From IMG/VR virus record IMGVR_UViG_2645727563_000002, positions 1 to 55,868 of that record: a stretch of 55,868 nucleotides of DNA; one strand, 5' to 3'. Positions 3,999 to 55,868 of the stretch are shown here, one piece after another; the first letter of the stretch is position 1, and every line of letters begins with the position of its first letter. The position numbers and the translations under genes were made by a program. The notes below the pieces were generated by a model. The model saw only the letters and a list, made by a program, of their open reading frames with translations. It had not been told where the DNA came from and ran no database searches. This stretch comes from a virus (Duplodnaviria > Heunggongvirae > Uroviricota > Caudoviricetes).

Positions 3999-5726
3999 TT
4001 ACTCAGAGTCACCGGCATCAATCGTGTCGCCGCTAATGAAGTTAAGCCCGCCTTTTTTGGCCATTGTCAGCGTTACACGAGTGAAGTAATCAGCGCCGTT
4101 GCGTGGGTGCATATCGTTGATAGCCGAACCCCACAGCGTGGTACGGTTGACCAGCGCCGGAGTGGTCGGATGCTGGAACGGGATGGCCGGGACAGCATCA
4201 CCAGTCACGAAGCCTGCTTTACCCGGATTTTCATCACGGACGTAGCACAGCACATCCATCGAGCTGAACTGAATGTTCTCTGTCGTTAAGTTCTTACAAA
4301 TACCAGCAGGTACTTCGTACACTTTCACGTTACCGAACAGGGTACCGATGTAGTGAACATACGGAGTCTGGATATAGTCTTCGGCTGGCTGGAAGAAATC
4401 CTTCGGCAACTGTTTGAAGAAAGATGCTGCATCAGCACCAGCAAACATCCCCATCGCACCAGAAGATTTAACGCGCTCAATAATGTCGCGATATACAGTC
4501 TGGAATTTGCCACGAATGATGGTTGCCCATACATCAAAGGACTGGTTAACCGGCAGAGCGATGTCAAAGGTGTCGGTCGCAAGAGTACGCCAGATCATGA
4601 TGCGAAGACGCAGCATATCCTGTTCATGAGACAGGTATTCCTTCAGGGTGCGGAACTGTAGGGAACCCAGGTCCAGACCAAATTCACGCTGTGCTTCATA
4701 CGCCGCCTGTACCGTGTGCTCAGCCGCGATAACGAACTGGCTTGGGAACAGGGTGTATTTCTTCATTTCGTGGTTGATCAGCGGGATCAGCTCAGGAGCG
4801 GCTTCAATATTGATTTCCGTCTCAATTGCGATCTCAGTGCCTTTATCCGGCGCTTTGGAGAACGACAGGGCAATCTGACCAATGTTGTAGTTCAGAGAGC
4901 AGGTAACAGTGATTTGCTCACCAGCAGCATTAGTAAACGAGTGAAGTAGGCTGCCGGAACCGTTATCAACAACAGACTTAATACGGTTAACGTAGATGTT
5001 AGTGCGACCTTTTCGGATTGGTACATTCTGGCCTTCGAAGTCTTCCATCTTGAAGGTTGCGGTTTTGCTGGTGCCATCGGAGCTTGCCACCAGCACATAG
5101 CGGCGACGTAACTGGCTGTACACACCGACGGATTGCATGTCCAGAACATCACCAGCAGCATAAGAACCAAAAGAGGAACCTGCCACGTTAAAGACTTCAT
5201 AGATGTCGGACTGGTCACGCGTAACCGGAATGAAGGTACACGCATCAGCGGTAGCTGCCCCCAACTGAACAGGCAGGATCATCGCGAGGAATAAAGGCAG
5301 ACGCATAACACCGTCAGAAACGCTCATCATCTCTGCTGCGACGGATTCCAGCATCGCTTTATTAGTGGCATCCATGCTATTGCGGGTGGACTCAATCAGG
5401 CAGTTTTCCAGCGTCTGGTGGCAGGAGGCCAGAATTTCCGGACGCGGCATAGATTTATGTGCTGCGGCGTAGTCAGCCAGTGCACTTGCCCACGCTGTAG
5501 CGATTTGAGCGGTGGCATTATCAGAGATACCCGCAAAAACCGGGTCTTTACGTGCAGCTTCAAGGATAGATGCGGCACGCGCGGCATCATCTTTAATGAA
5601 TTGGTTATCAGTACCGAACTGCGCAGTGCTTGCCCAGCCAAGCACAGCTTTAGAGCGTTTTGCGATATCTGCAATACGATTCTGGTATTCGCGTAAGTTA
5701 CTCAATTTACTCTTCCTTAAACACAA
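3999..5726 (-). CDS. major capsid protein precursor (about 568-575 aa)
   Basis: Large structural ORF just downstream of parS, positionally equivalent to P1 gene 23; track start is TTG, a second TTG at 5705 has a better RBS (aggaag). Confidence 0.5.
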   Translation of the reverse strand: MCLRKSKLSNLREYQNRIADIAKRSKAVLGWASTAQFGTDNQFIKDDAARAASILEAARKDPVFAGISDNATAQIATAWASALADYAAAHKSMPRPEILASCHQTLENCLIESTRNSMDATNKAMLESVAAEMMSVSDGVMRLPLFLAMILPVQLGAATADACTFIPVTRDQSDIYEVFNVAGSSFGSYAAGDVLDMQSVGVYSQLRRRYVLVASSDGTSKTATFKMEDFEGQNVPIRKGRTNIYVNRIKSVVDNGSGSLLHSFTNAAGEQITVTCSLNYNIGQIALSFSKAPDKGTEIAIETEINIEAAPELIPLINHEMKKYTLFPSQFVIAAEHTVQAAYEAQREFGLDLGSLQFRTLKEYLSHEQDMLRLRIMIWRTLATDTFDIALPVNQSFDVWATIIRGKFQTVYRDIIERVKSSGAMGMFAGADAASFFKQLPKDFFQPAEDYIQTPYVHYIGTLFGNVKVYEVPAGICKNLTTENIQFSSMDVLCYVRDENPGKAGFVTGDAVPAIPFQHPTTPALVNRTTLWGSAINDMHPRNGADYFTRVTLTMAKKGGLNFISGDTIDAGDSE

Positions 5727-43821: not shown

Positions 43822-44043
43822 ATGCAATCCATTAACTTCCGTACCGCGCGCGGCAACCTTTCTGAAGTGCTCAACAATGTTGAAGCCGGGGAAGAGGTTG
43901 AAATCACCCGCAGAGGCCGTGAGCCAGCAGTAATTGTCAGCAAGGCTACTTTCGAAGCCTACAAAAAAGCGGCGCTGGATGCTGAATTTGCATCCCTGTT
44001 TGACACCCTGGACTCCACCAACAAGGAACTGGTTAACCGATAA
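43822..44043 (+). CDS. phd: antitoxin Phd (73 aa)
   Basis: [39 protein letters not shown]... Confidence 0.85.
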
Positions 44044-44423
44044 TGAGGCATATATCACCGGAAGAACTTATTGCGCTTCATGATGCGAATATAAACCGCT
44101 ACGGCGGCCTGCCGGGAATGTCAGATCCGGGTAGGGCAGAGGCTATTATCGGGAGAGTTCAGGCCAGAGTTGCCTACGAAGAGATCACCGACCTTTTCGA
44201 AGTCTCCGCCACCTACCTGGTGGCTACAGCGAGAGGGCATATATTCAATGATGCCAATAAGCGTACCGCGCTAAACAGTGCGCTGTTATTTCTACGCCGT
44301 AACGGGGTGCAGGTATTTGATTCACCTGAACTGGCAGACCTTACTGTAGGCGCTGCGACTGGCGAGATATCTGTATCTTCTGTCGCCGACACGTTACGTA
44401 GATTGTATGGTTCTGCGGAGTAG
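44043..44423 (+). CDS. doc: toxin Doc (Fic-family, 126 aa)
   Basis: Fic motif [10 protein letters not shown]; overlaps phd stop. Confidence 0.85.
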
Positions 44424-44607
44424 ATTAATGGCACGCAAATACAACAAATTGTCCCGTGAAGCGTTAAAGATGCTTCTTGATGGCGTGAGTCGCCGCAAGG
44501 TAAAGCAATACCTGGTTGGTAAGCAAATTGGAGTCAGGACCGCTATTGCTGTGTTATGCCGTCAGGAAATGGTTGCGCTTAAACAGAGAATGCCGGGCAG
44601 CAGATAA
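44407..44607 (+). CDS. pdcA: PdcA-like small protein (66 aa)
   Basis: Overlaps doc 3' end; position as in P1. Confidence 0.4.
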
Positions 44608-44634
44608 AGCCCAATCAGTGATGAAAGGTGTGAT

Positions 44635-45678
44635 GTGAAAGCCGTAATTACTCCCTTTGTACAGAAAGAGCTTGGCCTCGCCACGTTCAAAGTGGATCAG
44701 GAGGTCAGAAAGCTGGTGGAGGCTGGCCGTAAATTTATTATGGAGCCGGTGCCGCGTGAGTTAATCGAGCACATGGAAGACGGCCTCGTTGTTACCGAGC
44801 AAACCATGGCAACAAATGAGGCGTTGCAGCCGTTTTTTAACAGCGATGAACTGTTTCGCCGTATTGGTGGAATTGACTCGCTGGTGGCGTGGTTGCGCAG
44901 GAAAGAGGGGCAATGCCAGGCCGCAGATCGTAGCTGGTGTGACAACCATATTGTCCACGCAGAACGAGACAATAGCGCGGTGTTGTTGTGCTGGCATCAC
45001 GATAACCATTACCGGATGCGTGGTTTTAATGAGCTGAAAGAAACGCTGCACAATAATCGCGTTAACTGGATACTGGATGTCGCCCGTCAGGAAATGGGCC
45101 TTTCAAATAGCCATGATTTAAGTATTCAGGAGCTGTGCTGGTGGGCTTTCATGCGCAACATGATGCACCTGATGCCGGAAGAAGTCTGCCGCATATCAAT
45201 AAATAAGATGAAGGCTACTCCGCAGGATAGCGGACCTCTGAAAGAGGCGGATATTCGCCCGTATGACGATCGCGCTACAGCATATGTTCAGATGATGGAA
45301 GAACGCGCCGCGCCGATGCGTGCAAAAGTATGCCCTGTGGATGTTGACTCCGACCCTGGCATGGCGCATTTCAAAATACCAAAACTGCGATCGCTAAAAT
45401 TACCTGAGTACATGGACTTTGTTGCTTCCCGTCCGTGCTGTGGGTGTGGAGCTGCGGGAGCTGGCGCTCACATTACGCCTTATATCGTTCGTCATAGTCG
45501 ATTATGCGCGCATGACATTTACGCAATTCCTCTGTGCCAGTCATGCCAGCGTGATATTGAGCGTGACCGCGATAATTGGGAGAAGACGCACGGTAGGTTG
45601 GCGATGCATCAACGATTGTTCTTTGATTACGCGCTTGGAGTGGGCGTTATCACAAGTCATTCGTCGAGTGTTAGATAA
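44635..45678 (+). CDS. pdcB: PdcB-like protein (347 aa)
   Basis: Intact ORF between doc and lpa; Cys-rich C-terminus. Confidence 0.5.
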
Positions 45679-45679
45679 A

Positions 45680-45696
45680 ATTGCTCTAATGTATTG
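45680..45696 (+). promoter_or_regulatory. C1 operator-like site upstream of lpa
   Basis: attgctctaatgtattg, 13/17. Confidence 0.4.
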
Positions 45697-45766
45697 CTAT
45701 TTATTTAATCGAGGGTATTATATTCCACGTTGATTAGTTTACATGGGCTAATCAGTAGGTGACAGG

Positions 45767-46219
45767 ATGTTACTTAACTGGCAGGGACGCCACTTCATGG
45801 AAATAAATCACTCACGAATAACATCGTACGAGATTGCGGATTACATGATCCGCACTAAATCTCTTCTATCAGCGAAAGAACTCGCAGCAATTCTTGAAAA
45901 GGAATACCCGCATCTGGATGTCGATAAGCGCGATGTTTATCTGCGCTTAAAGGCTATCGCTGTGTCTAAGTATTCGTCTGTTTTGATTGATGACAGTACA
46001 CGCCCACGTAGATTTCAGATCCACTCTCTGAATCCTGAATTCTTTCGCCGCAGCCGCGCGCCGCGCCGGTTTGATGAAAAACTCCAGAACGAACTCTATA
46101 TGACGCAGGACGAAAAGGAACGCCGGGAACACCAGCCTTGGGTAATGGCGCGTCAACTTTTCAATAAGGTAGCCCGTCAGCACCGTCATTACGGTAATGC
46201 CACATCCGCACGTATCTGA
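45767..46219 (+). CDS. lpa: late promoter activator Lpa (150 aa or shorter from internal ATG)
   Basis: Position between pdcB and pacA with an upstream C1 operator; size as P1 Lpa. Confidence 0.6.
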   Translation: MLLNWQGRHFMEINHSRITSYEIADYMIRTKSLLSAKELAAILEKEYPHLDVDKRDVYLRLKAIAVSKYSSVLIDDSTRPRRFQIHSLNPEFFRRSRAPRRFDEKLQNELYMTQDEKERREHQPWVMARQLFNKVARQHRHYGNATSARI

Positions 46220-46245
46220 TTGATTGCTTGCCCGTTCCGGGCCTT

Positions 46246-46259
46246 TTGACATGTGACTT
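46246..46259 (+). promoter_or_regulatory. candidate Lpa-dependent late promoter for pacAB
   Basis: TTGACATGTGACTT + 4 nt + TACCCT. Confidence 0.35.
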
Positions 46260-46304
46260 TCGTTACCCTCGCGTCAAAAAGAGTTTTTACGAAAGGAAGC
46301 ATAA

Positions 46305-47498
46305 GTGACCTGGGACGATCACAAGAAGAATTTTGCTCGCCTGGCGCGAGATGGTGGTTACACCATCGCACAGTATGCCGCCGAGTTTAATCTTAACCCT
46401 AATACCGCACGTCGTTATCTCCGTGCCTTCAAAGAAGACACCAGGACAGCGGACAGCCGCAAGCCAAATAAGCCAGTCAGGAAGCCTCTAAAAAGCATGA
46501 TCATTGATCACTCTAATGATCAACATGCAGGTGATCACATTGCGGCTGAAACAGCGGAAAAACAAAGAGTTAATGCCGTTGTCAGTGCCGCAGTCGAGAA
46601 TGCGAAGCGCCAAAATAAGCGCATAAATGATCGTTCAGATGATCATGACGTGATCACCCGCGCCCACCGGACCTTACGTGATCGCCTGGAACGCGACACC
46701 CTGGATGATGATGGTGAACGCTTTGAATTCGAAGCTGGCGATTACCTGATAGATAACGTTGAAGCGCGGAAGGCCGCGCGCGCTATGTTGCGTCGGTCCG
46801 GGGCCGATGTTCTGGAAACCACTCTTCTGGAAAAGTCTCTTTCTCATCTCCTTATGCTGGAGAACGCCAGGGATACGTGTATTCGCCTGGTGCAGGAAAT
46901 GCGCGATCAGCAAAAAGACGATGATGAAGGTACTCCGCCTGAATACCGTATCGCGAGCATGCTAAACAGCTGTTCCGCGCAGATAAGCAGCCTGATCAAC
47001 ACCATTTACAGCATCCGGAATAACTATCGAAAAGAAAGCCGGGAGGCGGAAAAGCACGCTTTATCTATGGGGCAAGCTGGCATTGTTAAGCTGGCATACG
47101 AACGAAAGCGTGAAAATAACTGGTCAGTGCTGGAAGCGGCTGAATTCATCGAGGCGCATGGAGGAAAAGTGCCGCCCCTGATGCTGGAGCAAATCAAAGC
47201 CGATCTGCGTGCTCCTAAGACCAATACCGATGATGAGGAAAACCAAACAGCATCTGGCGCTCCATCACTTGAAGATCTGGATAAAATCGCGCGAGAACGG
47301 GCCGCCAGCCGCCGCGCTGATGCGGCATTGTGGATTGAGCATCGTAGAGAAGAAATTGCCGATATCGTCGATACGGGTGGTTATGGTGATGTCGATGCGG
47401 AAGGCATATCAAACGAAGCATGGCTTGAACAGGATCTGGACGAAGACGAGGAGGAAGACGAAGAAGTTACCCGCAAACTGTACGGGGATGATGATTAA
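46305..47498 (+). CDS. pacA: terminase small subunit PacA (397 aa)
   Basis: 397 aa as in P1; contains the pac site; GTG start after aaaggaag. Confidence 0.85.
46497..46657. other. pac: pac packaging site
   Basis: Four TGATCA/G hexamers at 46497-46537 and three more at 46627-46657 (plus tgatcg at 46678), each containing a Dam GATC. Confidence 0.75.
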
Positions 47499-48982
47499 TG
47501 GCCAGAAGTTGCGTAACGGACCCACGTTGGCGCGAGCTGGTGGCGCTATATCGTTATGACTGGATTGCGGCCGCTGATGTGTTGTTTGGGAAGACACCAA
47601 CCTGGCAGCAGGATGAGATCATTGAGTCCACGCAGCAGGACGGCAGTTGGACAAGTGTGACCTCCGGCCATGGTACTGGTAAATCGGATATGACGAGTAT
47701 CATTGCAATACTCTTCATCATGTTTTTCCCCGGCGCTCGCGTCATTCTGGTCGCTAACAAAAGACAGCAAGTCCTTGATGGTATTTTCAAATACATAAAG
47801 AGCAATTGGGCTACTGCTGTTAGCAGATTCCCGTGGTTGTCGAAGTATTTCATTCTTACAGAAACGTCTTTTTTTGAGGTGACTGGCAAGGGTGTTTGGA
47901 CAATATTGATAAAGTCCTGTCGCCCCGGAAATGAGGAGGCGTTGGCTGGTGAACACGCCGATCATCTCTTGTATATCATCGACGAAGCGTCGGGTGTGAG
48001 TGATAAAGCATTCAGTGTGATAACAGGTGCGCTGACCGGTAAGGATAACCGTATTCTGCTTCTTTCCCAGCCTACGCGACCTTCAGGCTATTTCTACGAT
48101 TCACACCACAGACTAGCTATTCGCCCGGGAAATCCTGATGGATTGTTTACTGCGATAATACTGAATAGTGAAGAATCTCCGCTTGTAGATGCAAAATTTA
48201 TACGAGCAAAACTTGCAGAGTATGGCGGTCGTGATAACCCCATGTACATGATCAAAGTACGTGGTGAATTTCCCAAATCTCAAGATGGCTTTCTTCTTGG
48301 TCGTGATGAGGTTGAGCGGGCGACGCGGCGAAAGGTCAAGATTGCCAAAGGATGGGGCTGGGTTGCATGTGTTGACGTTGCTGGTGGCACAGGACGAGAT
48401 AAGTCCGTTATTAATATCATGATGGTGTCCGGCCAGCGAAATAAACGCCGTGTAATCAACTATCGTATGCTGGAATACACAGACGTTACAGAAACGCAGT
48501 TAGCCGCCAAGATTTTCGCAGAATGTAACCCAGAACGGTTCCCGAACATAACCATAGCTATTGATGGCGATGGCTTGGGGAAATCGACGGCTGATCTAAT
48601 GTACGAACGCTATGGCATTACCGTCCAGCGTATCCGCTGGGGTAAAAAGATGCACAGCCGTGAAGATAAAAGCCTTTATTTCGATATGCGCGCTTTCGCG
48701 AATATTCAGGCGGCAGAAGCTGTAAAATCAGGGCGTATGAGGCTTGATAAGGGGGCTGCGACTATAGAGGAAGCATCAAAGATACCGGTAGGGATAAATT
48801 CCGCAGGTCAATGGAAGGTGATGTCAAAGGAAGATATGAAGAAAAAACTCAACCTGCACTCACCGGACCATTGGGATACATATTGTTTCGCTATGTTGGC
48901 GAACTATGTTCCCCAAGATGAAGTGCTTAGCGTCGAAGACGAAGCGCAGGTTGATGAAGCTCTGGCATGGCTTAATGAATAA
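47498..48982 (+). CDS. pacB: terminase large subunit PacB (494 aa)
   Basis: Terminase ATPase/nuclease-size ORF overlapping pacA stop. Confidence 0.8.
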
Positions 48983-49006
48983 CTCATTAACCATGCCGGA
49001 TGGAAA

Positions 49007-49858
49007 CTATTGCGCGCTTTCGGGGTTGCTGTTTACTGGCTGCCCCTTCTTAGTTTTACGGCTGCGCGTAACTGATGCGGCTGATTTGACCTTTTTCTCT
49101 TCGCGAGTGATGGCAATTTGTTTTTTTACATTTTCAATATCTGCCAGGCGATATATTTTTGCCTGCGGCCAGCGGTCGCAGATGATCGGTTCTATAGAGT
49201 CATAAAGGCTAAATTTTGCTTTCTCGAATTCACCGTTGATGATGATTCCATCACGGAGAGTTTCATCGCAGATAAACACACCACACAGCGGTACATGGTA
49301 ACTAACTGATTTACCATCATTGTAGTTAGGGCTACTGGAAATGTAATGGACGCGCAGCATTGTTTCGCTAAAGCCGTGTACACGCATACGGAATTTTTCA
49401 TCCTCCGGGTACTGCTTCATTAGCTCTTTTGTTGCTTCCAGGTTCTCTATGTATTTCGCACTGTGCTCATTGATCCCCGCGCTTTTCTGGATGCGAATGT
49501 CCTTATCAATCAGATGAATAATGCGGCCAGCGGTCATGTTGACGCTGTTCACAGCTTCTGTCTGATAAGTAGTAACCTTACGCACACCGCGAAGGATGTT
49601 AGGCACTGGATATAAAATAGTCTTTGGGATATTGAGGTCTGGGTACTGTTCCAGTTCCCGCGCCATTAAAGTCCATTTATCAATTTCAGCCTGAATGCTG
49701 TCCGTTTCTTTGAACGGCAGAACGACAACCGGGCGAACAGGACGACCGTCGCTGGCGGCATCAACGTGTTGGGCGCGTGCAACAGCTTTTTTTAGAAAGA
49801 GATCCCTGAAGCTGACGAACTCCTGGTACAGTTGTTCGCCGTAGACATAATTTATCAT
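49007..49858 (-). CDS. c1: C1 immunity repressor (283 aa)
   Basis: 283 aa beginning MINYVYGEQLYQEF; cognate 17-bp operators occur throughout the window. Confidence 0.9.
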   Translation of the reverse strand: MINYVYGEQLYQEFVSFRDLFLKKAVARAQHVDAASDGRPVRPVVVLPFKETDSIQAEIDKWTLMARELEQYPDLNIPKTILYPVPNILRGVRKVTTYQTEAVNSVNMTAGRIIHLIDKDIRIQKSAGINEHSAKYIENLEATKELMKQYPEDEKFRMRVHGFSETMLRVHYISSSPNYNDGKSVSYHVPLCGVFICDETLRDGIIINGEFEKAKFSLYDSIEPIICDRWPQAKIYRLADIENVKKQIAITREEKKVKSAASVTRSRKTKKGQPVNSNPESAQ

Positions 49859-49952
49859 TGATCCTCCTCCAGAATTGACATGGCCAACAACTCACAGCGG
49901 ATTACACTGGGAGTTGTTGACCACCATTATAGAAGGATCCAACGAAAATAAT

Positions 49953-49969
49953 AGATTTATTAGTGCATT
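49953..49969 (-). promoter_or_regulatory. C1 operator in the c1/coi control region
   Basis: agatttattagtgcatt, 14/17 reverse orientation. Confidence 0.45.
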
Positions 49970-50178
49970 TATTGTGAGTCTGGCTGGTTAGTGGCCATGA
50001 GATATTCGATTGTGTCAGTGAGATCATCCAGGTCGTCTTGGGTGATGCGGTACTCCTGATTGGATATCTTTGAGTAGTGTTCAGCAATGGCGCGGGCAGC
50101 GTCGGTTTCGGCGGGGTCTACAGATAAAGCGTTAGAGCAATGTCTAACGTCGTCGATGGTTGGTGGAATGAAAGCCAT
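49969..50178 (-). CDS. coi: Coi, C1 inactivator (69 aa)
   Basis: 69-aa ORF immediately upstream of c1 on the same strand. Confidence 0.8.
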   Translation of the reverse strand: MAFIPPTIDDVRHCSNALSVDPAETDAARAIAEHYSKISNQEYRITQDDLDDLTDTIEYLMATNQPDSQ

Positions 50179-50417
50179 AATTATGCCTCACTGTATTGAC
50201 AACACAGAGCCTGAAGCTCTGACCTACTGTTTCACCCATGATCCATGCTGGGGTAATCTAACAACATTGCGCTGTGTGTAAGATGAGCAATGCATAGCTG
50301 TAATGCCGTTGTATAAGGTTTCCCTGTTTGCTCATTTCCTTCTGAGCCGCTCTACAACGCTGAAGACACATTAAATAGTGAATCCAAAGTCGTATTACGA
50401 AACGGCGGCAAAACTAT

Positions 50418-50434
50418 AATTTATTAGAGCAATT
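50418..50434 (-). promoter_or_regulatory. C1 operator
   Basis: aatttattagagcaatt, 16/17. Confidence 0.6.
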
Positions 50435-50499
50435 GTCAAACAACTATGAAAAACAATCCAGTTTTTGGCTGGTGGAGTGGGATTTTTCTCTCAAAATTT

Positions 50500-50516
50500 A
50501 TTGCTCTAATAATTCT
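50500..50516 (+). promoter_or_regulatory. C1 operator
   Basis: attgctctaataattct, 15/17. Confidence 0.55.
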
Positions 50517-50558
50517 TGATTTTTATGCGCAGCTGGACGTAAACTCCTCTTCAGACCT

Positions 50559-50592
50559 AATAACTTCGTATAGCATACATTATACGAAGTTA
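50559..50592 (+). other. loxP: loxP recombination site
   Basis: ATAACTTCGTATA-GCATACAT-TATACGAAGTTAT, exact 13-8-13 loxP. Confidence 0.95.
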
Positions 50593-50661
50593 TCTTAAGG
50601 GTTATTGAACATGATCAATTTACCTGTAAATCCATACAGTTCAATACCTTATCAGGTCAAA

Positions 50662-50692
50662 TAGTGATCACTTGATCATTTGATCAAGGTTG
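50662..50692. promoter_or_regulatory. Dam GATC cluster in the cre upstream region
   Basis: tgatcacttgatcatttgatcaagg, three GATC in 25 bp. Confidence 0.4.
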
Positions 50693-50782
50693 CGCTACGT
50701 AAAATCTGTGAAATGTTGGCAGTGTTTGTGCTCCAGATTTCGCGTAGCGCACTTAGCACCACCAATCAATCAGAGGTGAAAA

Positions 50783-51004
50783 ATGGGATATTCAGCTGCT
50801 AAAGTGTCCACTCATCTTGAGCTTGAGAAAAACCGTGGTTACTGGCGGGCAAAAGGGTTTGATCGTGATAGTTGTCAACTGTCATTATCGCGCGGTGAAG
50901 AGAAAATAGAACGCACGCGCGGTCGCTGGCGTTTCTATGACGAGAACCATAAACAGGTAAAGGCAGAGCCGATCCTGTACACTTTACTTAAAACCATTAT
51001 CTGA
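50783..51004 (+). CDS. possible small ORF upstream of cre (73 aa)
   Basis: ATG with gaggtga RBS; may instead be non-coding cre promoter region. Confidence 0.2.
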   Translation: MGYSAAKVSTHLELEKNRGYWRAKGFDRDSCQLSLSRGEEKIERTRGRWRFYDENHKQVKAEPILYTLLKTII

Positions 51005-51011
51005 GTGTTAA

Positions 51012-52043
51012 ATGTCCAATTTACTGACCGTACACCAAAATTTGCCTGCATTACCGGTCGATGCAACGAGTGATGAGGTTCGCAAGAACCTGATGGACAT
51101 GTTCAGGGATCGCCAGGCGTTTTCTGAGCATACCTGGAAAATGCTTCTGTCCGTTTGCCGGTCGTGGGCGGCATGGTGCAAGTTGAATAACCGGAAATGG
51201 TTTCCCGCAGAACCTGAAGATGTTCGCGATTATCTTCTATATCTTCAGGCGCGCGGTCTGGCAGTAAAAACTATCCAGCAACATTTGGGCCAGCTAAATA
51301 TGCTTCATCGTCGGTCCGGGCTGCCACGACCAAGTGACAGCAATGCTGTTTCACTGGTCATGCGACGGATCCGAAAAGAAAACGTTGATGCCGGTGAGCG
51401 TGCAAAACAGGCATTGGCGTTCGAACGCACTGATTTCGACCAGGTTCGTTCACTCATGGAAAATAGCGATCGCTGCCAGGATATACGTAATCTGGCATTT
51501 CTTGGGATTGCTTATAATACCCTGCTACGTATAGCAGAAATTGCCAGGATCAGGGTTAAAGATATCTCACGTACTGACGGTGGGAGAATGTTAATCCATA
51601 TTGGCAGAACGAAAACGCTGGTTAGCGCCGCAGGTGTAGAGAAGGCACTTAGCCTGGGGGTAACTAAACTGGTCGAGCGATGGATTTCTGTCTCTGGTGT
51701 AGCTGATGATCCTAATAACTACCTGTTTTGCCGGGTCAGAAAAAATGGTGTTGCCGCGCCATCTGCCACCAGCCAGCTATCAACTCGCGCCCTGGAAGGG
51801 ATTTTTGAAGCAACTCATCGATTGATTTACGGCGCTAAGGATGACTCTGGTCAGAGATACCTGGCCTGGTCTGGACACAGTGCCCGTGTCGGAGCCGCGC
51901 GAGATATGGCCCGCGCTGGAGTTTCAATACCGGAGATCATGCAAGCTGGTGGCTGGACCAATGTAAATATTGTCATGAACTATATCCGTAACCTGGATAG
52001 TGAAACAGGGGCAATGGTGCGCCTGCTGGAAGATGGCGATTAG
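51012..52043 (+). CDS. cre: Cre site-specific tyrosine recombinase (343 aa)
   Basis: Full-length, essentially identical to P1 Cre as recalled (MSNLLTVHQNLPALPVDATSDEVRKNLMDMFRDRQAFSEHTWK...). Confidence 0.95.
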   Translation: MSNLLTVHQNLPALPVDATSDEVRKNLMDMFRDRQAFSEHTWKMLLSVCRSWAAWCKLNNRKWFPAEPEDVRDYLLYLQARGLAVKTIQQHLGQLNMLHRRSGLPRPSDSNAVSLVMRRIRKENVDAGERAKQALAFERTDFDQVRSLMENSDRCQDIRNLAFLGIAYNTLLRIAEIARIRVKDISRTDGGRMLIHIGRTKTLVSAAGVEKALSLGVTKLVERWISVSGVADDPNNYLFCRVRKNGVAAPSATSQLSTRALEGIFEATHRLIYGAKDDSGQRYLAWSGHSARVGAARDMARAGVSIPEIMQAGGWTNVNIVMNYIRNLDSETGAMVRLLEDGD

Positions 52044-52061
52044 CCATTAACGCGTAAATGA

Positions 52062-52078
52062 TTGCTCTAATTCTTTGA
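52062..52078 (+). promoter_or_regulatory. C1 operator-like site
   Basis: attgctctaattctttg, 13/17. Confidence 0.4.
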
Positions 52079-52093
52079 TATTTATGGTGACAT

Positions 52094-52405
52094 ATGAGAA
52101 AGGATTTCAACATCGACGGAAAATATGTAGTGCTGTCTGTAAGCACTAATATTCTGTCACCATCTGTCATTGTCACCGTAAAGTTGAGCGATAGGATGCC
52201 TGATATCGACTCGATATCTGTTGCGTTCCCCGTTAAAAGCATGCGGAGTGCTGAACATTTTGTGATGAATGCAACGGAAGAGGAAGCGCGGCGCGGGCTT
52301 ACTAGAGTGATGGGGGAATTTGGCGAACTCCTGGGTAAGGTAAACAATGCCCTTTCAATCAGTTCAGCAAGGTCCAAAGCGTTAACAGCTTCCATGATGA
52401 AATAA
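52094..52405 (+). CDS. cra: Cra-like protein (103 aa)
   Basis: ORF immediately downstream of cre. Confidence 0.5.
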   Translation: MRKDFNIDGKYVVLSVSTNILSPSVIVTVKLSDRMPDIDSISVAFPVKSMRSAEHFVMNATEEEARRGLTRVMGEFGELLGKVNNALSISSARSKALTASMMK

Positions 52406-52537
52406 AAAAAAGCCTGGCAAGGAGCCAGGCTGCACAAAAGAGCGGGTTTGTATTCCGCATCCAATCAATCAAGAAGGAGTATAGCACACAGGTACTGAAG
52501 TGAAAAAATGTGATTCGCGATAAACAAAATATCTACC

Positions 52538-52567
52538 ATTGCTCTAATTGATTGCTATAATTTAGCC
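52538..52567 (+). promoter_or_regulatory. tandem C1 operators upstream of ref
   Basis: attgctctaattgattg overlapping attgctataatttagcc. Confidence 0.45.
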
Positions 52568-52621
52568 GCAGTTTTTGTCAACTACGAAGACGTTGCCATT
52601 ACTTCACTCCTTGACATCATT

Positions 52622-52647
52622 GGCGGCCATTAGGCCGCCTTTTTTTT
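52622..52647 (+). terminator. rho-independent terminator
   Basis: ggcggcc-atta-ggccgcc followed by T8. Confidence 0.7.
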
Positions 52648-52652
52648 GCCAT

Positions 52653-53213
52653 ATGAAAACAATCGAACAAAAACTTGAACAGCGCCGCGAGTGGCAGAAG
52701 GCAGCCAGAGAACGAGCGATCGCTCGGCAACGGGAAAAGTTGGCTGACCCCGCCTGGCGAGAATCGCAATATCAGAAAATGCGGGATTCTATCGACCGCC
52801 GTATCGCTAAACAGAAAGAGCGCCCACCAGCCAGCAAAACGCGGAAAAGTGCGGTAAAAATAAAATCTCGTGGCTTGAAGGGGCGAACACCGACGGCGGA
52901 GGAACGGACCATCGCCAATGCTCTTGGCACTCTCCCCTGCATTGCCTGCTACATGCATGGAGTAATATCTGAAGAGGTGTCTCTGCACCATATCTCCGGT
53001 CGTACCGCGCCGGGTTGTCACAAAAAGCAATTGCCCCTTTGCAGATGGCACCACCAGCATGCAGCACCGGCTGAAGTAAGAGAAAAATACCCTTGGCTGG
53101 TCCCTGTTCATGCAGATGGCGTGGTAGGAGGCAAGAAAGAATTCACCTTGTTGAACAAGTCAGAGATGGAGTTGCTGGCTGACGCCTATGAAATGGCAAA
53201 CATCATGCACTAA
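52653..53213 (+). CDS. ref: Ref, recombination enhancement function (HNH endonuclease, 186 aa)
   Basis: Begins MKTIEQKLEQRREWQKAARERAIARQREKLADPAWRESQYQ; Cys/His-rich HNH C-terminus. Confidence 0.85.
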   Translation: MKTIEQKLEQRREWQKAARERAIARQREKLADPAWRESQYQKMRDSIDRRIAKQKERPPASKTRKSAVKIKSRGLKGRTPTAEERTIANALGTLPCIACYMHGVISEEVSLHHISGRTAPGCHKKQLPLCRWHHQHAAPAEVREKYPWLVPVHADGVVGGKKEFTLLNKSEMELLADAYEMANIMH

Positions 53214-53249
53214 TAAATATATTATTTTTAATCTTAAATGATTGACAAC

Positions 53250-53262
53250 TGACAAGTGACTT
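53250..53262 (+). promoter_or_regulatory. candidate Lpa-dependent late promoter for mat
   Basis: TGACAAGTGACTT + 4 nt + CAGAAT; preceded by an operator-like gcactaataaatat. Confidence 0.35.
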
Positions 53263-53401
53263 GAGTCAGAATCATCACACGCCCGGTACGGATGGATCCC
53301 TTTTCAAATATTCCATGGACGGCACAGTCTGAGTACCGGGCGCTACCTTCAGTTGTATTGCTAAGCCGCCGCTGGTGGCTTTTCTTTTTTGTAGGGGCGC
53401 T

Positions 53402-54043
53402 ATGGATAAGAAAATATGCGTTGTTTCAATGAGCGTCGGCAAACCGGCGTCAATGACTGCTGCATGGATCAACAATGAGCTGATAATGGCTGAGCGGACC
53501 AGCTACCCTGAACGCCGCCGCGATATGGAACTCCAGCTGCTGCGCGAATTGCGAGAAAAAGAGGAAAAGGGTTTTATCGTGCTGGTGGAAGAGGAAAACA
53601 GCTTTATTACCGGTCGAGTTGGCCAGCGTGTAAGGTTGCGTGATCCCTTCATGAACGGCAGACCGGTACTGATTGAAGCAATGCAGATTTACAAGGAATT
53701 GGAACGCCAGAAAGCGATCAAGTTACCGCGCAAGGAATCCGGCAAATACATCCTTCACCAAAGCATCTTCGATTCCGAACACGATAAAAAAGGCGATGAA
53801 TTTTTCAACATCAACTGGAGCGAAATAACGACAGAACATGTTCTGTCGTTACTATGTTGCTTTGCGACGGAATACAACAACGTTGCCAGCGCCGACTACA
53901 TCAGGGCAATGGCTGGAGAAGTTGAGGCCCATCAGGAACCATCATTACTAAGTCCCCTGATTAACATAATTCGCGGAACTCAAACACTAACGCAAAAACA
54001 AGTGCCGCAAGGAGAATTAACAGGTAAACAGAACTATTTATAA
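53402..54043 (+). CDS. mat: Mat-like particle maturation protein (213 aa)
   Basis: Position after ref as in P1; ATG after agggg RBS. Confidence 0.5.
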   Translation: MDKKICVVSMSVGKPASMTAAWINNELIMAERTSYPERRRDMELQLLRELREKEEKGFIVLVEEENSFITGRVGQRVRLRDPFMNGRPVLIEAMQIYKELERQKAIKLPRKESGKYILHQSIFDSEHDKKGDEFFNINWSEITTEHVLSLLCCFATEYNNVASADYIRAMAGEVEAHQEPSLLSPLINIIRGTQTLTQKQVPQGELTGKQNYL

Positions 54044-54155
54044 TAGTTACGTTAGGTAACATTATGGGTATGTTTCATTTTCATACCCATTGATTTCTAG
54101 CTTGATTTGTTATTATATGTAACAACACATTAATCATTTGAACTGGATGTTAGTA

Positions 54156-55277
54156 ATGGGCAGTGAAGTATATCAAAGCCAAAAATGCGAGCTTAAATAT
54201 TCGAAATCTCAAATAGAAAAAGCAGCCAGAAAAATTAGACATGGTTGTGAGGGCGCAGAGCGAGAAGAAGCAATTAAAATGATTCAAAATTTCCGCGAGC
54301 TTCATTTATATCCATTGATGCTAATGAAAAATCATCTTGATAGGGCTGCAAAAAAAGTTGATAAAGAGAATAAGATTATTGTTGCAAGACGCCTAAAAAG
54401 ACTTAGCACAATAATTGATAAACTGGAGCGTCCAAGTCTTGACGGCGGCGCAACAAATAATGCAATAGCCCTTACTAGAATGCAGGATATTGGCGGATGT
54501 AGAGCTATAGTTAGAAACATCGAACAACTAAAGAAACTAAAAGACCGACTAGTTAAAAGTCGCTCCAAGCATAAAATCTTAAAGGAATATGACTATTTAA
54601 CTCCAAAGCCAAGCGGATATAGTGGCATTCACCTTGCATATAGTTGTTTTGATGAAGAAAACGGTAACAATCCGTGGAGTAAAACTAAAATCGAAGTACA
54701 ACTAAGAACAGAACTCCAACATGCTTGGGCAACAAGTCTGGAGATAATAGATACACTTGAAAATATTAAGCTGAAAACTTCTAATGAAGGTCACCCTGAG
54801 TGGAGAAGATTTTTTTATCTTTCTGGATGCCTAGTTGCTCATGATGAAGGTGCCTGTATTCTTGATGATGAAACCATCAAAAATTATCAAACAGAGCTTA
54901 AAACATTGGAGGAGGCTTTATCTGTTCGCTCAAAATTAAGTACATATACATTTGCAATGAAGCTGACATCAGATGCAAACCTAAAGAAAAGCCTGCCCAA
55001 AAACCATAATGGATTCTTTTTGGTGAGGATGAGAAACGCCATAACAAAAAATGGCAAGGATACTGGAAAGTTTCTTGTTTCTGTGAAACCTTTTAGGAAA
55101 AAAGAATCGGAACAAGCCCTCCAGGAACTTAATAAGGATGATGCGGATCCTGAAGTATTAATTGCGGTGCTGCTTGCCACTAACAACATTAAATCTCTTA
55201 AAAAGGCTTATCCTAACTATTTTGGGTCAACAAATCAGTTCGGGAGATTCCTTAGCAGACACATTGATACTGTGTAA
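54156..55277 (+). CDS. RelA/SpoT-domain (toxSAS) nucleotidyltransferase with C-terminal extension; candidate fused toxin-antitoxin anti-phage sensor (CapRel-like)
   Basis: Synthetase-fold motifs DIGGCRAIV, PSGYSGIHL, EVQLRTELQHAWAT in the N-terminal 200 aa plus about 170-aa C-terminal domain; start could be 54138 (TTG), 54147 or 54156. Confidence 0.6.
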   Translation: MGSEVYQSQKCELKYSKSQIEKAARKIRHGCEGAEREEAIKMIQNFRELHLYPLMLMKNHLDRAAKKVDKENKIIVARRLKRLSTIIDKLERPSLDGGATNNAIALTRMQDIGGCRAIVRNIEQLKKLKDRLVKSRSKHKILKEYDYLTPKPSGYSGIHLAYSCFDEENGNNPWSKTKIEVQLRTELQHAWATSLEIIDTLENIKLKTSNEGHPEWRRFFYLSGCLVAHDEGACILDDETIKNYQTELKTLEEALSVRSKLSTYTFAMKLTSDANLKKSLPKNHNGFFLVRMRNAITKNGKDTGKFLVSVKPFRKKESEQALQELNKDDADPEVLIAVLLATNNIKSLKKAYPNYFGSTNQFGRFLSRHIDTV

Positions 55278-55281
55278 ATTC

Positions 55282-55306
55282 CTATGCCTGGCTTAGCCAG
55301 GCATAG
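55282..55306. terminator. hairpin between convergent genes
   Basis: cctatgcctggc-ttag-ccaggcatag, 10-bp perfect stem; no clear U-tract. Confidence 0.35.
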
Positions 55307-55314
55307 CCAAAGAT

Positions 55315-55563
55315 TTAATCAGCATTCAGGAGCAATGCGTTATCTATGATGATCTGCTCCCATTCTTCGAATGCCCGGTCGCGGACGCCCTGGGGAACGC
55401 TGTTAGTTTTGAAATCGACGACCGTACGCCATTTCCCGTCCGGACGGTACATGCGCAGAGCTTTACTTCCCCCTTCCCTGCGCACCTCAACGTTATGCTT
55501 ATCAGCAAACTCTTGTAATGCTCGTAGCGTCCCATGCTTTACTGTGTAGTATCGCTTTTTCAA
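55315..55563 (-). CDS. small protein (82 aa) with weak HicA/YcfA-like resemblance
   Basis: GGSKALRMYRPDGKWRTVV loosely resembles the HicA GSHh...pdGk..vtvP core but lacks the His; TTG start overlapping the upstream stop. Confidence 0.3.
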   Translation of the reverse strand: MKKRYYTVKHGTLRALQEFADKHNVEVRREGGSKALRMYRPDGKWRTVVDFKTNSVPQGVRDRAFEEWEQIIIDNALLLNAD

Positions 55564-55868
55564 GTTTTCTCTCCAGCCTGTGCCAAGGCTTCAACTTCCA
55601 AATCGTAAGACTCAAACTCATAGTCCTGGTCGTCAACTTCTTCAGGCACTGGCAGTAAATGCCAGGCTGAGTATATCTGACCATTATCAAAACGCTCCTG
55701 GCTGTAGAGCGTCGCGGCTATGAGTGTTAGCGCCGGGCGGTCATAACGGTAAATTTTGCGAACGTCACGGTCAACGAGACGACCGAAATTACCATAACCG
55801 CGCTCCAGTAATAATTTTTTAATTTCCGGCCAGTATGGACCATAGCTGCGGTACAGGCGGGGATTTTT
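55560..55868 (-). CDS. 3' part of a gene truncated by the window edge (at least 102 codons)
   Basis: Open frame from the window end to TGA at 55560-55562; start lies beyond the window. Confidence 0.4.
   Translation of the reverse strand, partial: KNPRLYRSYGPYWPEIKKLLLERGYGNFGRLVDRDVRKIYRYDRPALTLIAATLYSQERFDNGQIYSAWHLLPVPEEVDDQDYEFESYDLEVEALAQAGEKT

What the first reader, a model, noticed from the sequence alone, without database searches (positions are those of the whole stretch)
54138..55277. RelA/SpoT-type toxSAS with a long C-terminal domain sits where P1 has res/mod
The ORF carries the three hallmark segments of the RelA/SpoT nucleotidyltransferase fold (DIGGCRAIV, PSGYSGIHL, EVQLRTELQHAWAT) in its N-terminal half and a further 170-residue C-terminal domain, with no separate antitoxin gene on the same strand. 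That is the architecture of fused toxSAS toxin-antitoxin proteins of the CapRel type, which are reported to pyrophosphorylate tRNA after their C-terminal domain binds an incoming phage capsid protein. It lies directly after cre-cra-ref-mat, the position where P1 carries the EcoP1I restriction-modification genes, so this looks like a swapped defence cargo locus. The element encodes its own capsid gene at 3999-5726, raising the question of how self-activation is avoided.
Basis: partly seen in the sequence, partly recalled or inferred. Interest (0 to 1): 0.85.

Follow-up and report, generated by a model that had tools for sequence, protein, structure and literature searches.

The report
CapRel-SJ46, a published anti-phage toxin-antitoxin

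Summary
The ORF is real. Its protein, read from ATG 54156 (373 aa) rather than the upstream TTG at 54138, is 100% identical over its full length to PDB 7ZTB and 9ERV. The DNA from 53300 to 55868 is 100% identical to Salmonella phage SJ46. This is therefore CapRel(SJ46) itself, the founding example of fused toxSAS toxin-antitoxin defence (Zhang et al., Nature 2022 and 2024). In that work the N-terminal toxSYNTH domain pyrophosphorylates tRNA. The C-terminal pseudo-zinc-finger domain autoinhibits it and acts as sensor, opening when it binds the major capsid protein of SECphi27-like phages or Gp54 of Bas11. All 17 residues mutated in the 2022 paper are present at the published positions.

The gene sits between mat and lxc, where P1 and P7 carry type III res/mod. 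In other P1-like elements this slot is empty or holds a PIN-domain or a DUF2971 protein. The res-mod region is already published as a low-GC variable region, and CapRel has been reported on P1-like phage-plasmids.

The element's own head protein (P1 Gp23 type) and the rest of the window show no similarity to either known trigger. That probably explains the lack of self-activation, but it has not been tested.

Verdict: interpretation supported, already known, low interest.

The parts
54156..55277 (+). capRel(SJ46) coding sequence, 373 aa plus stop
   Evidence: 100% identical over the full length to PDB 7ZTB_A (373 aa) and 9ERV_A. Corresponds to the SJ46 CDS BI168_gp058. All 17 published mutated residues are at the published positions.
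54138..54155 (+). in-frame upstream extension of the mechanical ORF (TTG start); not part of the protein
   Evidence: The ORF listing start compared with the crystallised protein and the GenBank CDS.
54390..54734 (+). core of the toxSYNTH (RelA/SpoT nucleotidyltransferase) domain, residues 79-193 in 373-aa numbering. It includes R79, R116 and the G-loop Y155.
   Evidence: Pfam PF04607, E=3.1e-13. Residues checked. Their roles come from PMC9712102.
54156..54971 (+). residues 1-272, the published toxic N-terminal fragment
   Evidence: Construct capRel(1-272) in PMC9712102. It is toxic when expressed alone.
54972..55274 (+). residues 273-373, the published antitoxin and sensor fragment: pseudo-ZFD with L280 and L307, and the C-terminal helix with YXXY (Y352, Y355)
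   Evidence: Construct capRel(273-373) rescues toxicity in trans. L280Q/P and L307A lose Gp57 binding. Residues present.
54017..54044 (+). sigma-70-like promoter candidate (TTAACA-16-TATAAT, 11 of 12) overlapping the mat stop codon
   Evidence: a consensus match only. The region held 3 such sites against 4.3 expected by chance. The paper obtained native expression from 100-200 bp of upstream DNA.
54044..54155 (.). AT-rich (28.6% GC) intergenic leader belonging to the cargo module
   Evidence: The alignment with other P1-like elements loses similarity here.
55282..55306 (.). perfect 11-bp stem, 3-nt loop hairpin between the convergent capRel and lxc genes; probable terminator
   Evidence: -19.5 kcal/mol, z = -4.1, 0 of 200 shuffles fold as well. 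There is no T-run, so the terminator scan did not call it.
53402..54043 (+). mat (maturation control), the conserved left flank of the slot
   Evidence: SJ46 annotation and P1 annotation. Similarity to P1 ends about 45 bp before the mat stop.
55315..55563 (-). lxc (modulator of C1), the conserved right flank of the slot
3999..5705 (-). the element's own major head protein gene (P1 gene 23 type)
   Evidence: 99.7-99.9% DNA identity to gene 23 of P1 and RCS47. PDB 9UKM/9VL4 'Gp23', 568 aa, matches residues 8-575 of the ORF. No similarity to the known trigger Gp57.

Best explanation
The gene encodes CapRel(SJ46), a single-polypeptide (fused) type II toxin-antitoxin that provides abortive-infection defence and is carried as accessory cargo by a P1-like phage-plasmid. 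In uninfected cells the C-terminal pseudo-zinc-finger domain and its YXXY helix fold back onto the ATP site of the N-terminal toxSYNTH (RelA/SpoT-fold) domain and keep it closed. When certain phages infect, a newly made phage protein binds the C-terminal domain and holds the enzyme open. Known triggers are the major capsid protein of SECphi27, Bas5 and Bas8, and the 66-aa Gp54 of Bas11; T-even phages act through a trigger that is still unknown. The open enzyme transfers pyrophosphate from ATP to tRNAs, translation stops, and the infected cell fails to release phage. These steps are experimentally shown in the literature for this exact sequence. Three further points are my inference. First, in this element the gene is expressed from its own AT-rich leader during lysogeny. 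Second, it benefits the phage-plasmid by excluding competing lytic phages. Third, it does not fire on the element's own Gp23 head protein, because recognition is narrowly sequence-specific and Gp23 is unrelated to the known triggers.
For: Identity. 100% over 373 aa to PDB 7ZTB and 9ERV. 100% DNA identity to SJ46 over 53300-55868. The residues A77, R78, R79, R116, Y155, L280, L307, K311, R314, E319, V338, L339, A341, K346, A351, Y352 and Y355 all match.

Family evidence. Pfam RelA_SpoT at 3.1e-13. PADLOC candidate defence model PDC-S33 at 5.1e-87, nearly full length.

Mechanism, from PMC9712102 and PMC11578894: toxicity of residues 1-272 and rescue by 273-373; the crystal structure; direct binding of Gp57 measured by ITC; Gp57-stimulated tRNA pyrophosphorylation; escape mutants; 9ERV is the complex with Gp54(Bas11).

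Context. There is no second gene in the module: mat lies upstream and convergent lxc downstream. GC is 37% against 47.6% for the window. The identical gene is in 22 PLSDB plasmids from E. coli, Salmonella and Klebsiella.

Self-tolerance. tblastn of SECphi27 Gp57 (identified by F113, L114 and I115) against the window gives a best E of 11. Gp54(Bas11), identified by its 66-aa length and by G24 and W43, gives a best E of about 1. A single F113Y change already abolishes activation.
Against: Nothing contradicts the identification. There are four caveats. (1) The window is not the SJ46 record itself. It lacks the Tn1721/blaCTX-M-27 insertion that SJ46 has upstream of mat, and its best plasmid match over 12 kb is 99.4%. 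Expression in this exact element is therefore inferred. (2) The published experiments used E. coli carrying the gene on pBR322 or in the chromosome, not the native phage-plasmid. (3) The T-even trigger is unknown, so lack of similarity to Gp57 and Gp54 does not prove that no protein of the element can trigger it. Only 56 kb of an element of roughly 95 kb is in the window. (4) The promoter and terminator assignments are consensus or folding matches only.
Confidence: 0.97

Rival explanations
1. It is a housekeeping-type small alarmone synthetase (RelQ/RelP/YjbM-like) that makes (p)ppGpp, as several database records label it ('GTP pyrophosphokinase', '(p)ppGpp synthetase').
For: The annotations in the SJ46 record and in AP026465 say so. 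There is weak sequence similarity to RelP/RelQ/YjbM structures, with E from 1.8e-7 to 2e-4.
Against: The NCBIfam equivalog GTPPhKinYjbM scores 39.4 bits against a cut-off of 320. The identical protein was shown to pyrophosphorylate tRNA and block translation, not to act as an alarmone synthetase. About 180 residues beyond the catalytic core have no counterpart in SAS enzymes.
Confidence: 0.01
2. Its main role in the phage-plasmid is plasmid addiction (post-segregational killing) rather than phage exclusion.
For: It is a toxin-antitoxin carried on a low-copy plasmid prophage. P1-type elements are known to use TA addiction (phd/doc; established knowledge, not tested here).
Against: Toxin and antitoxin are one polypeptide, so the differential decay that addiction requires cannot occur without specific cleavage. 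The full-length protein is non-toxic, and activation needs a phage protein. The slot otherwise holds restriction-modification and candidate defence genes.
Confidence: 0.02
3. It is silent or decaying cargo in this element.
For: A diverged homologue in phage vB_EcoM-673R5 is split by a frameshift in the record.
Against: Here the frame is intact and identical to the functional protein. 21 plasmids carry it full-length at 99.7% DNA identity or more. Its native upstream region drives functional expression. The 673R5 and 813R1 records contain other split genes, which suggests sequencing error.
Confidence: 0.01

Closest known systems
CapRel(SJ46) of Salmonella phage SJ46 (PDB 7ZTB; complex 9ERV; Zhang et al., Nature 2022 and 2024)
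   Same: Everything about the gene itself: identical 373-aa protein, identical DNA from the 5' part of mat through the start of ulx (the window ends there), and the same mat-lxc position.
   Different: Only the surrounding element differs. The window lacks the Tn1721/blaCTX-M-27 insertion that SJ46 has upstream of mat. It is closest to E. coli P1-like plasmids such as NZ_AP022163, at 99.4% over 12 kb.
CapRel(Ebc), CapRel(Kp) and CapRel(EcHT), other fused CapRels
   Same: The same fused architecture and autoinhibition logic, according to PMC9712102.
   Different: CapRel(Ebc) is 70% identical overall but only 47% identical in the C-terminal region, and it has a different phage specificity (T7).
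Two-gene toxSAS systems (PhRel/ATphRel of mycobacteriophage Phrann; FaRel2/ATfaRel2)
   Same: A toxSYNTH toxin that pyrophosphorylates the tRNA CCA end. [quoted passage not shown]
   Different: In those systems toxin and antitoxin are separate genes. Here they are fused and no neighbouring antitoxin gene exists.
EcoP1I/EcoP7I type III restriction-modification genes of P1 and P7
   Same: They occupy the same mat-lxc slot and also exclude foreign phage DNA.
   Different: The proteins are unrelated and lie on the opposite strand. They span about 6 kb against 1.1 kb here. They act on DNA directly rather than by abortive infection.

Membership tests
CapRel subfamily of fused toxSAS toxin-antitoxin systems | N-terminal RelA/SpoT-fold (toxSYNTH) domain with the G-loop tyrosine and ATP-coordinating arginines | tested here: met
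   Pfam PF04607 at E=3.1e-13. Y155, R79 and R116 are present.
CapRel subfamily of fused toxSAS toxin-antitoxin systems | C-terminal antitoxin-like pseudo-ZFD and YXXY neutralisation motif in the same polypeptide | tested here: met
   100% identity to the crystallised protein 7ZTB. Y352-x-x-Y355, L280 and L307 are present. The domain definition comes from PMC9712102.
CapRel subfamily of fused toxSAS toxin-antitoxin systems | Single ORF with no separate cognate antitoxin gene | tested here: met
   The neighbours are mat (a conserved P1 gene) and convergent lxc. The slot holds nothing else.
CapRel subfamily of fused toxSAS toxin-antitoxin systems | tRNA pyrophosphorylation on activation by a phage protein; anti-phage phenotype | not testable with these tools
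   Published for the identical sequence: Gp57-stimulated tRNA pyrophosphorylation, and 10- to 1,000-fold drops in EOP for T2, T4, T6, RB69 and SECphi27.
Housekeeping small alarmone synthetases (RelQ/YjbM, RelP/YwaC) | Reaches the NCBIfam equivalog score for GTP diphosphokinase YjbM | tested here: not met
   39.4 bits against a cut-off of 320.
PADLOC candidate system PDC-S33 | Near full-length match to the PDC-S33 profile | tested here: met
   E=5.1e-87, residues 17-376 of the 379-aa ORF against profile positions 4-342 of 349. No other model in that library matched at E up to 1.
P1-like 'variable region 1' (res-mod slot) | Lies between conserved mat and lxc, with low G+C and alternative contents in related elements | tested here: met
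   Flanks. GC 37% against 47.6% for the window. Alternative contents: type III RM, a PIN_12 protein, a DUF2971 protein, or empty. The region is described in PMC9603915.

The most novel reading that the evidence does not exclude
In its native P1-like element, CapRel(SJ46) might not be passively blind to its carrier. A late protein of the element, such as Gp23 or something encoded outside this window, could be able to trigger it. The element would then need timing control or an inhibitor to complete its own lytic cycle. A second, separate possibility is that the uncharacterised alternative occupants of the same slot are new single-gene defence systems: the 316-aa PIN_12 protein of JL22 and the unannotated 346-aa DUF2971 protein of MH422554.
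Probability: 0.08. Interest if true: 0.5.

Novelty: already known. Interest (0 to 1): 0.08.

Why it matters
As a discovery it does not matter. The protein, its structure, its triggers and its mechanism are published for this exact sequence. Both the variability of the res-mod region and the presence of CapRel on P1-like phage-plasmids are also reported. Its value is as a positive control for the scan: a reader with no tools inferred the correct family, mechanism and genomic logic from raw sequence. One small open point remains. I found no test of whether the carrier phage's own late proteins are tolerated by CapRel. The mat-lxc slot also contains at least two uncharacterised candidate defence genes in related elements.

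Tried and rejected
1. Local blastn of the slot against the fetched P1-like loci failed, because most locus files were not present in the sandbox. I replaced it with DNA alignment of the left junction and read the right junction.

2. I did not run the large homologue searches, structure prediction or fold searches. An identical solved structure (7ZTB) makes them redundant.

3. Housekeeping (p)ppGpp synthetase: rejected, see rivals.

4. I looked for a terminator with the consensus scan. It found only weak minus-strand sites inside the gene. The strong hairpin after the stop codon has no T-run and was found by folding.

5. I searched the literature for any treatment of CapRel self-activation by its carrier phage. 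Only a general remark on autoimmunity turned up in PMC11578894. P1 is not mentioned in the text of the 2022 paper, and the composition of its 12-phage panel is given only in a figure that I cannot read.

6. PHROGs gave only 'unknown function' families for CapRel (phrog_4773) and for the head protein (phrog_1014). Pfam has no model for the head protein. PDB 9UKM settled the identity of the head protein instead.

Full report
**Observation.** The ORF listing gives a 379-codon ORF at 54138..55277 on the + strand, starting at a TTG. Pfam RelA_SpoT matches residues 85-199 at E=3.1e-13, with 50.4 bits against a gathering score of 27.

**Identity.** A phmmer search of the PDB sequences returned two chains that are 100% identical over their full lengths. 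They are 7ZTB_A (373 aa, aligned to ORF residues 7-379) and 9ERV_A (372 aa), both named 'RelA/SpoT family protein'. Megablast of 53300-55868 against the phage collection gave 100% identity over 100% of the query to Salmonella phage SJ46 (KU760857 / NC_031129). There the CDS BI168_gp058 corresponds to window 54156-55277. The true start is therefore ATG 54156, and the protein has 373 residues.

The literature identifies this protein as CapRel(SJ46) (PMC9712102). PMC11578894 states that 9ERV is the CapRel(SJ46)-Gp54(Bas11) complex and lists 7ZTB among the previously published structures. As an independent check, I confirmed that all 17 residues mutated in the 2022 paper occur at the published positions in the window's protein. 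These are A77, R78, R79, R116, Y155, L280, L307, K311, R314, E319, V338, L339, A341, K346, A351, Y352 and Y355.

**Mechanism (published for this exact sequence; not re-derivable with these tools).**
- Residues 1-272 are toxic alone, and residues 273-373 rescue the toxicity in trans. The full-length protein is not toxic.
- The crystal structure shows an N-terminal toxSYNTH domain and a C-terminal pseudo-zinc-finger domain joined by anchor helices. In the modelled closed state the YXXY motif blocks the adenine site. Interface mutations make the protein constitutively toxic.
- Expressed from its native upstream 100-200 bp, the protein lowers plaquing of T2, T4, T6, RB69 and SECphi27 by 10- to 1,000-fold. 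It acts through abortive infection and needs Y155.
- SECphi27 escape mutants map to the major capsid protein Gp57 (L114P, I115F). Gp57 binds CapRel directly and stimulates tRNA pyrophosphorylation and translation arrest in vitro.
- Bas5 and Bas8 capsids also activate it. Bas4 does not, because of a single F113Y difference.
- A second, unrelated trigger is the 66-aa Gp54 of Bas11. T-even phages must act through further, still unknown triggers.

**Other database views.** PADLOC (2023) matches the candidate model PDC-S33 nearly end to end at E=5.1e-87 and matches nothing else. NCBIfam's YjbM equivalog scores 39.4 bits against a cut-off of 320. The 'GTP pyrophosphokinase' and '(p)ppGpp synthetase' labels in some records are therefore family-level guesses, not the function.

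**Anatomy of the module.**
- Upstream lies mat, which ends at 54043. A 112-bp leader of 28.6% GC follows.
- The gene itself is 37% GC, against 47.6% for the whole window.
- A TTAACA-16-TATAAT site (11 of 12) lies at 54017-54044 and overlaps the mat stop. This is a consensus match only. The scan found 3 such sites in the region against 4.3 expected from shuffles.
- Four bases after the stop codon, a perfect 11-bp stem with a 3-nt loop (55282-55306) folds at -19.5 kcal/mol (z = -4.1). It sits between capRel and the convergent lxc gene (55315-55563, minus strand).
- No second gene is present, so no separate antitoxin exists.

**Genomic position.** In P1 the order is cra-cre-c8-ref-mat-[res, mod on the minus strand]-lxc-ulx-darB, and P7 has the same layout. 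In the window the order is cra (50783), cre (51012), c8 (52094), ref (52575), mat, capRel, lxc. So capRel does occupy the res/mod position.

I looked at the same slot in other P1-like phages:
- RCS47 has nothing between mat and lxc.
- JL22 has a 316-aa protein with PIN_12 and PIN_8 domains and a partial PDC-S34 match.
- MH422554 has an unannotated 346-aa ORF with DUF2971 and PDC-S31 matches.
- vB_EcoM-813R1 has type III res/mod, split into pieces in the record.
- vB_EcoM-673R5 has a capRel homologue at 87% DNA identity, split by a frameshift in the record.

The left junction lies within the last few tens of bases of mat, where the elements already diverge. On the right, similarity resumes at the lxc stop codon.

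In PLSDB, 696 plasmids carry mat and 22 carry this capRel allele at 99.5% identity or more, 21 of them full-length. That is roughly 3% of the mat-bearing plasmids.

None of this is new in kind. PMC9603915 lists res-mod as variable region 1 of P1-like phage-plasmids and links it to low G+C. A 2025 preprint lists type III RM, dGTPase, PrrC and CapRel as the defence systems of P1-like phage-plasmids.

**Which element is this?** It is not the SJ46 record itself. SJ46 has Tn1721 (tnpR, tnpA) immediately upstream of mat, whereas the window has ref-mat contiguous as in P1. Over 44000-55868 the best plasmid match is NZ_AP022163 at 99.4%. [quoted passage not shown]

**Self-activation.** The ORF at 3999-5726 (minus strand) is the head gene. 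It is 99.7-99.9% identical to gene 23 of P1 and RCS47. Residues 8-575 match the solved P1 Gp23 (PDB 9UKM/9VL4, 568 aa), so the real start is near 5705.

I located the two known triggers:
- SECphi27 Gp57 is L003:27099-28070. It was recognised by F113, L114 and I115 and by its match to solved major capsid proteins.
- Gp54(Bas11) is L010:14781-14981 (minus strand). It has 66 aa, with G24 and W43 at the published escape positions.

tblastn of each against the whole window found nothing. The best E was 11 for Gp57 and about 1 for Gp54, the latter an 11-residue match. blastp of Gp57 against the head protein gave a best E of 2. Single conservative substitutions in Gp57 abolish activation. The simplest explanation is therefore that the carrier's proteins are simply not recognised. 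This is inference. The T-even trigger is unknown, only about 56 kb of the element is in the window, and I found no published test.

**Verdict.** The object is the already characterised type protein, in an already described variable slot. Interest is low, and the novelty class is 'already known'.

Noticed in passing
L006:2287-3237 (-) (phage JL22, mat-lxc slot): The slot holds a 316-aa 'hypothetical protein' with PIN_12 and PIN_8 domains (E=3.6e-18 and 1.7e-14). It also has a partial match to the PADLOC candidate PDC-S34 (E=1.4e-11, C-terminal 70 residues only). This is an uncharacterised candidate defence gene in the position of capRel and res/mod.
   Followed up: partly
L007:2138-3178 (-) (Punavirus P1 MH422554, mat-lxc slot): An unannotated 346-aa ORF fills the slot. 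It matches DUF2971 (E=9.3e-6) and four PADLOC PDC-S31 models (best E=2.1e-16). The record annotates nothing between mat and lxc.
   Followed up: partly
L004:2336-3444 (+) (phage vB_EcoM-673R5): A diverged capRel homologue (about 87% DNA identity) is split into two overlapping ORFs of 185 and 203 aa by a frameshift near the G-loop region. This record and the sister record 813R1 have other split genes (cre, mod), so it may be a sequencing error rather than a pseudogene.
   Followed up: partly
window 53214-53400 compared with L001:2510-5854: SJ46 carries Tn1721 (tnpR/tnpA, part of the blaCTX-M-27 region) immediately upstream of mat. The window has ref and mat contiguous. The window therefore comes from a different, transposon-free P1-like element with an identical capRel module.
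   Followed up: partly
window 3999-5726 (-): The mechanical ORF for the head gene starts 7 codons upstream of the solved P1 Gp23 sequence (PDB 9UKM, 568 aa), so the real start is near 5705. Several public records mislabel this gene as 'mobile element protein' or 'putative baseplate protein'.
   Followed up: yes
window 53960-54043 (3' end of mat): The last few tens of bases of mat already differ between P1-like elements that carry different slot cargo. Cargo exchange therefore seems to recombine inside the mat coding end, giving Mat proteins with variable C-termini.
   Followed up: no
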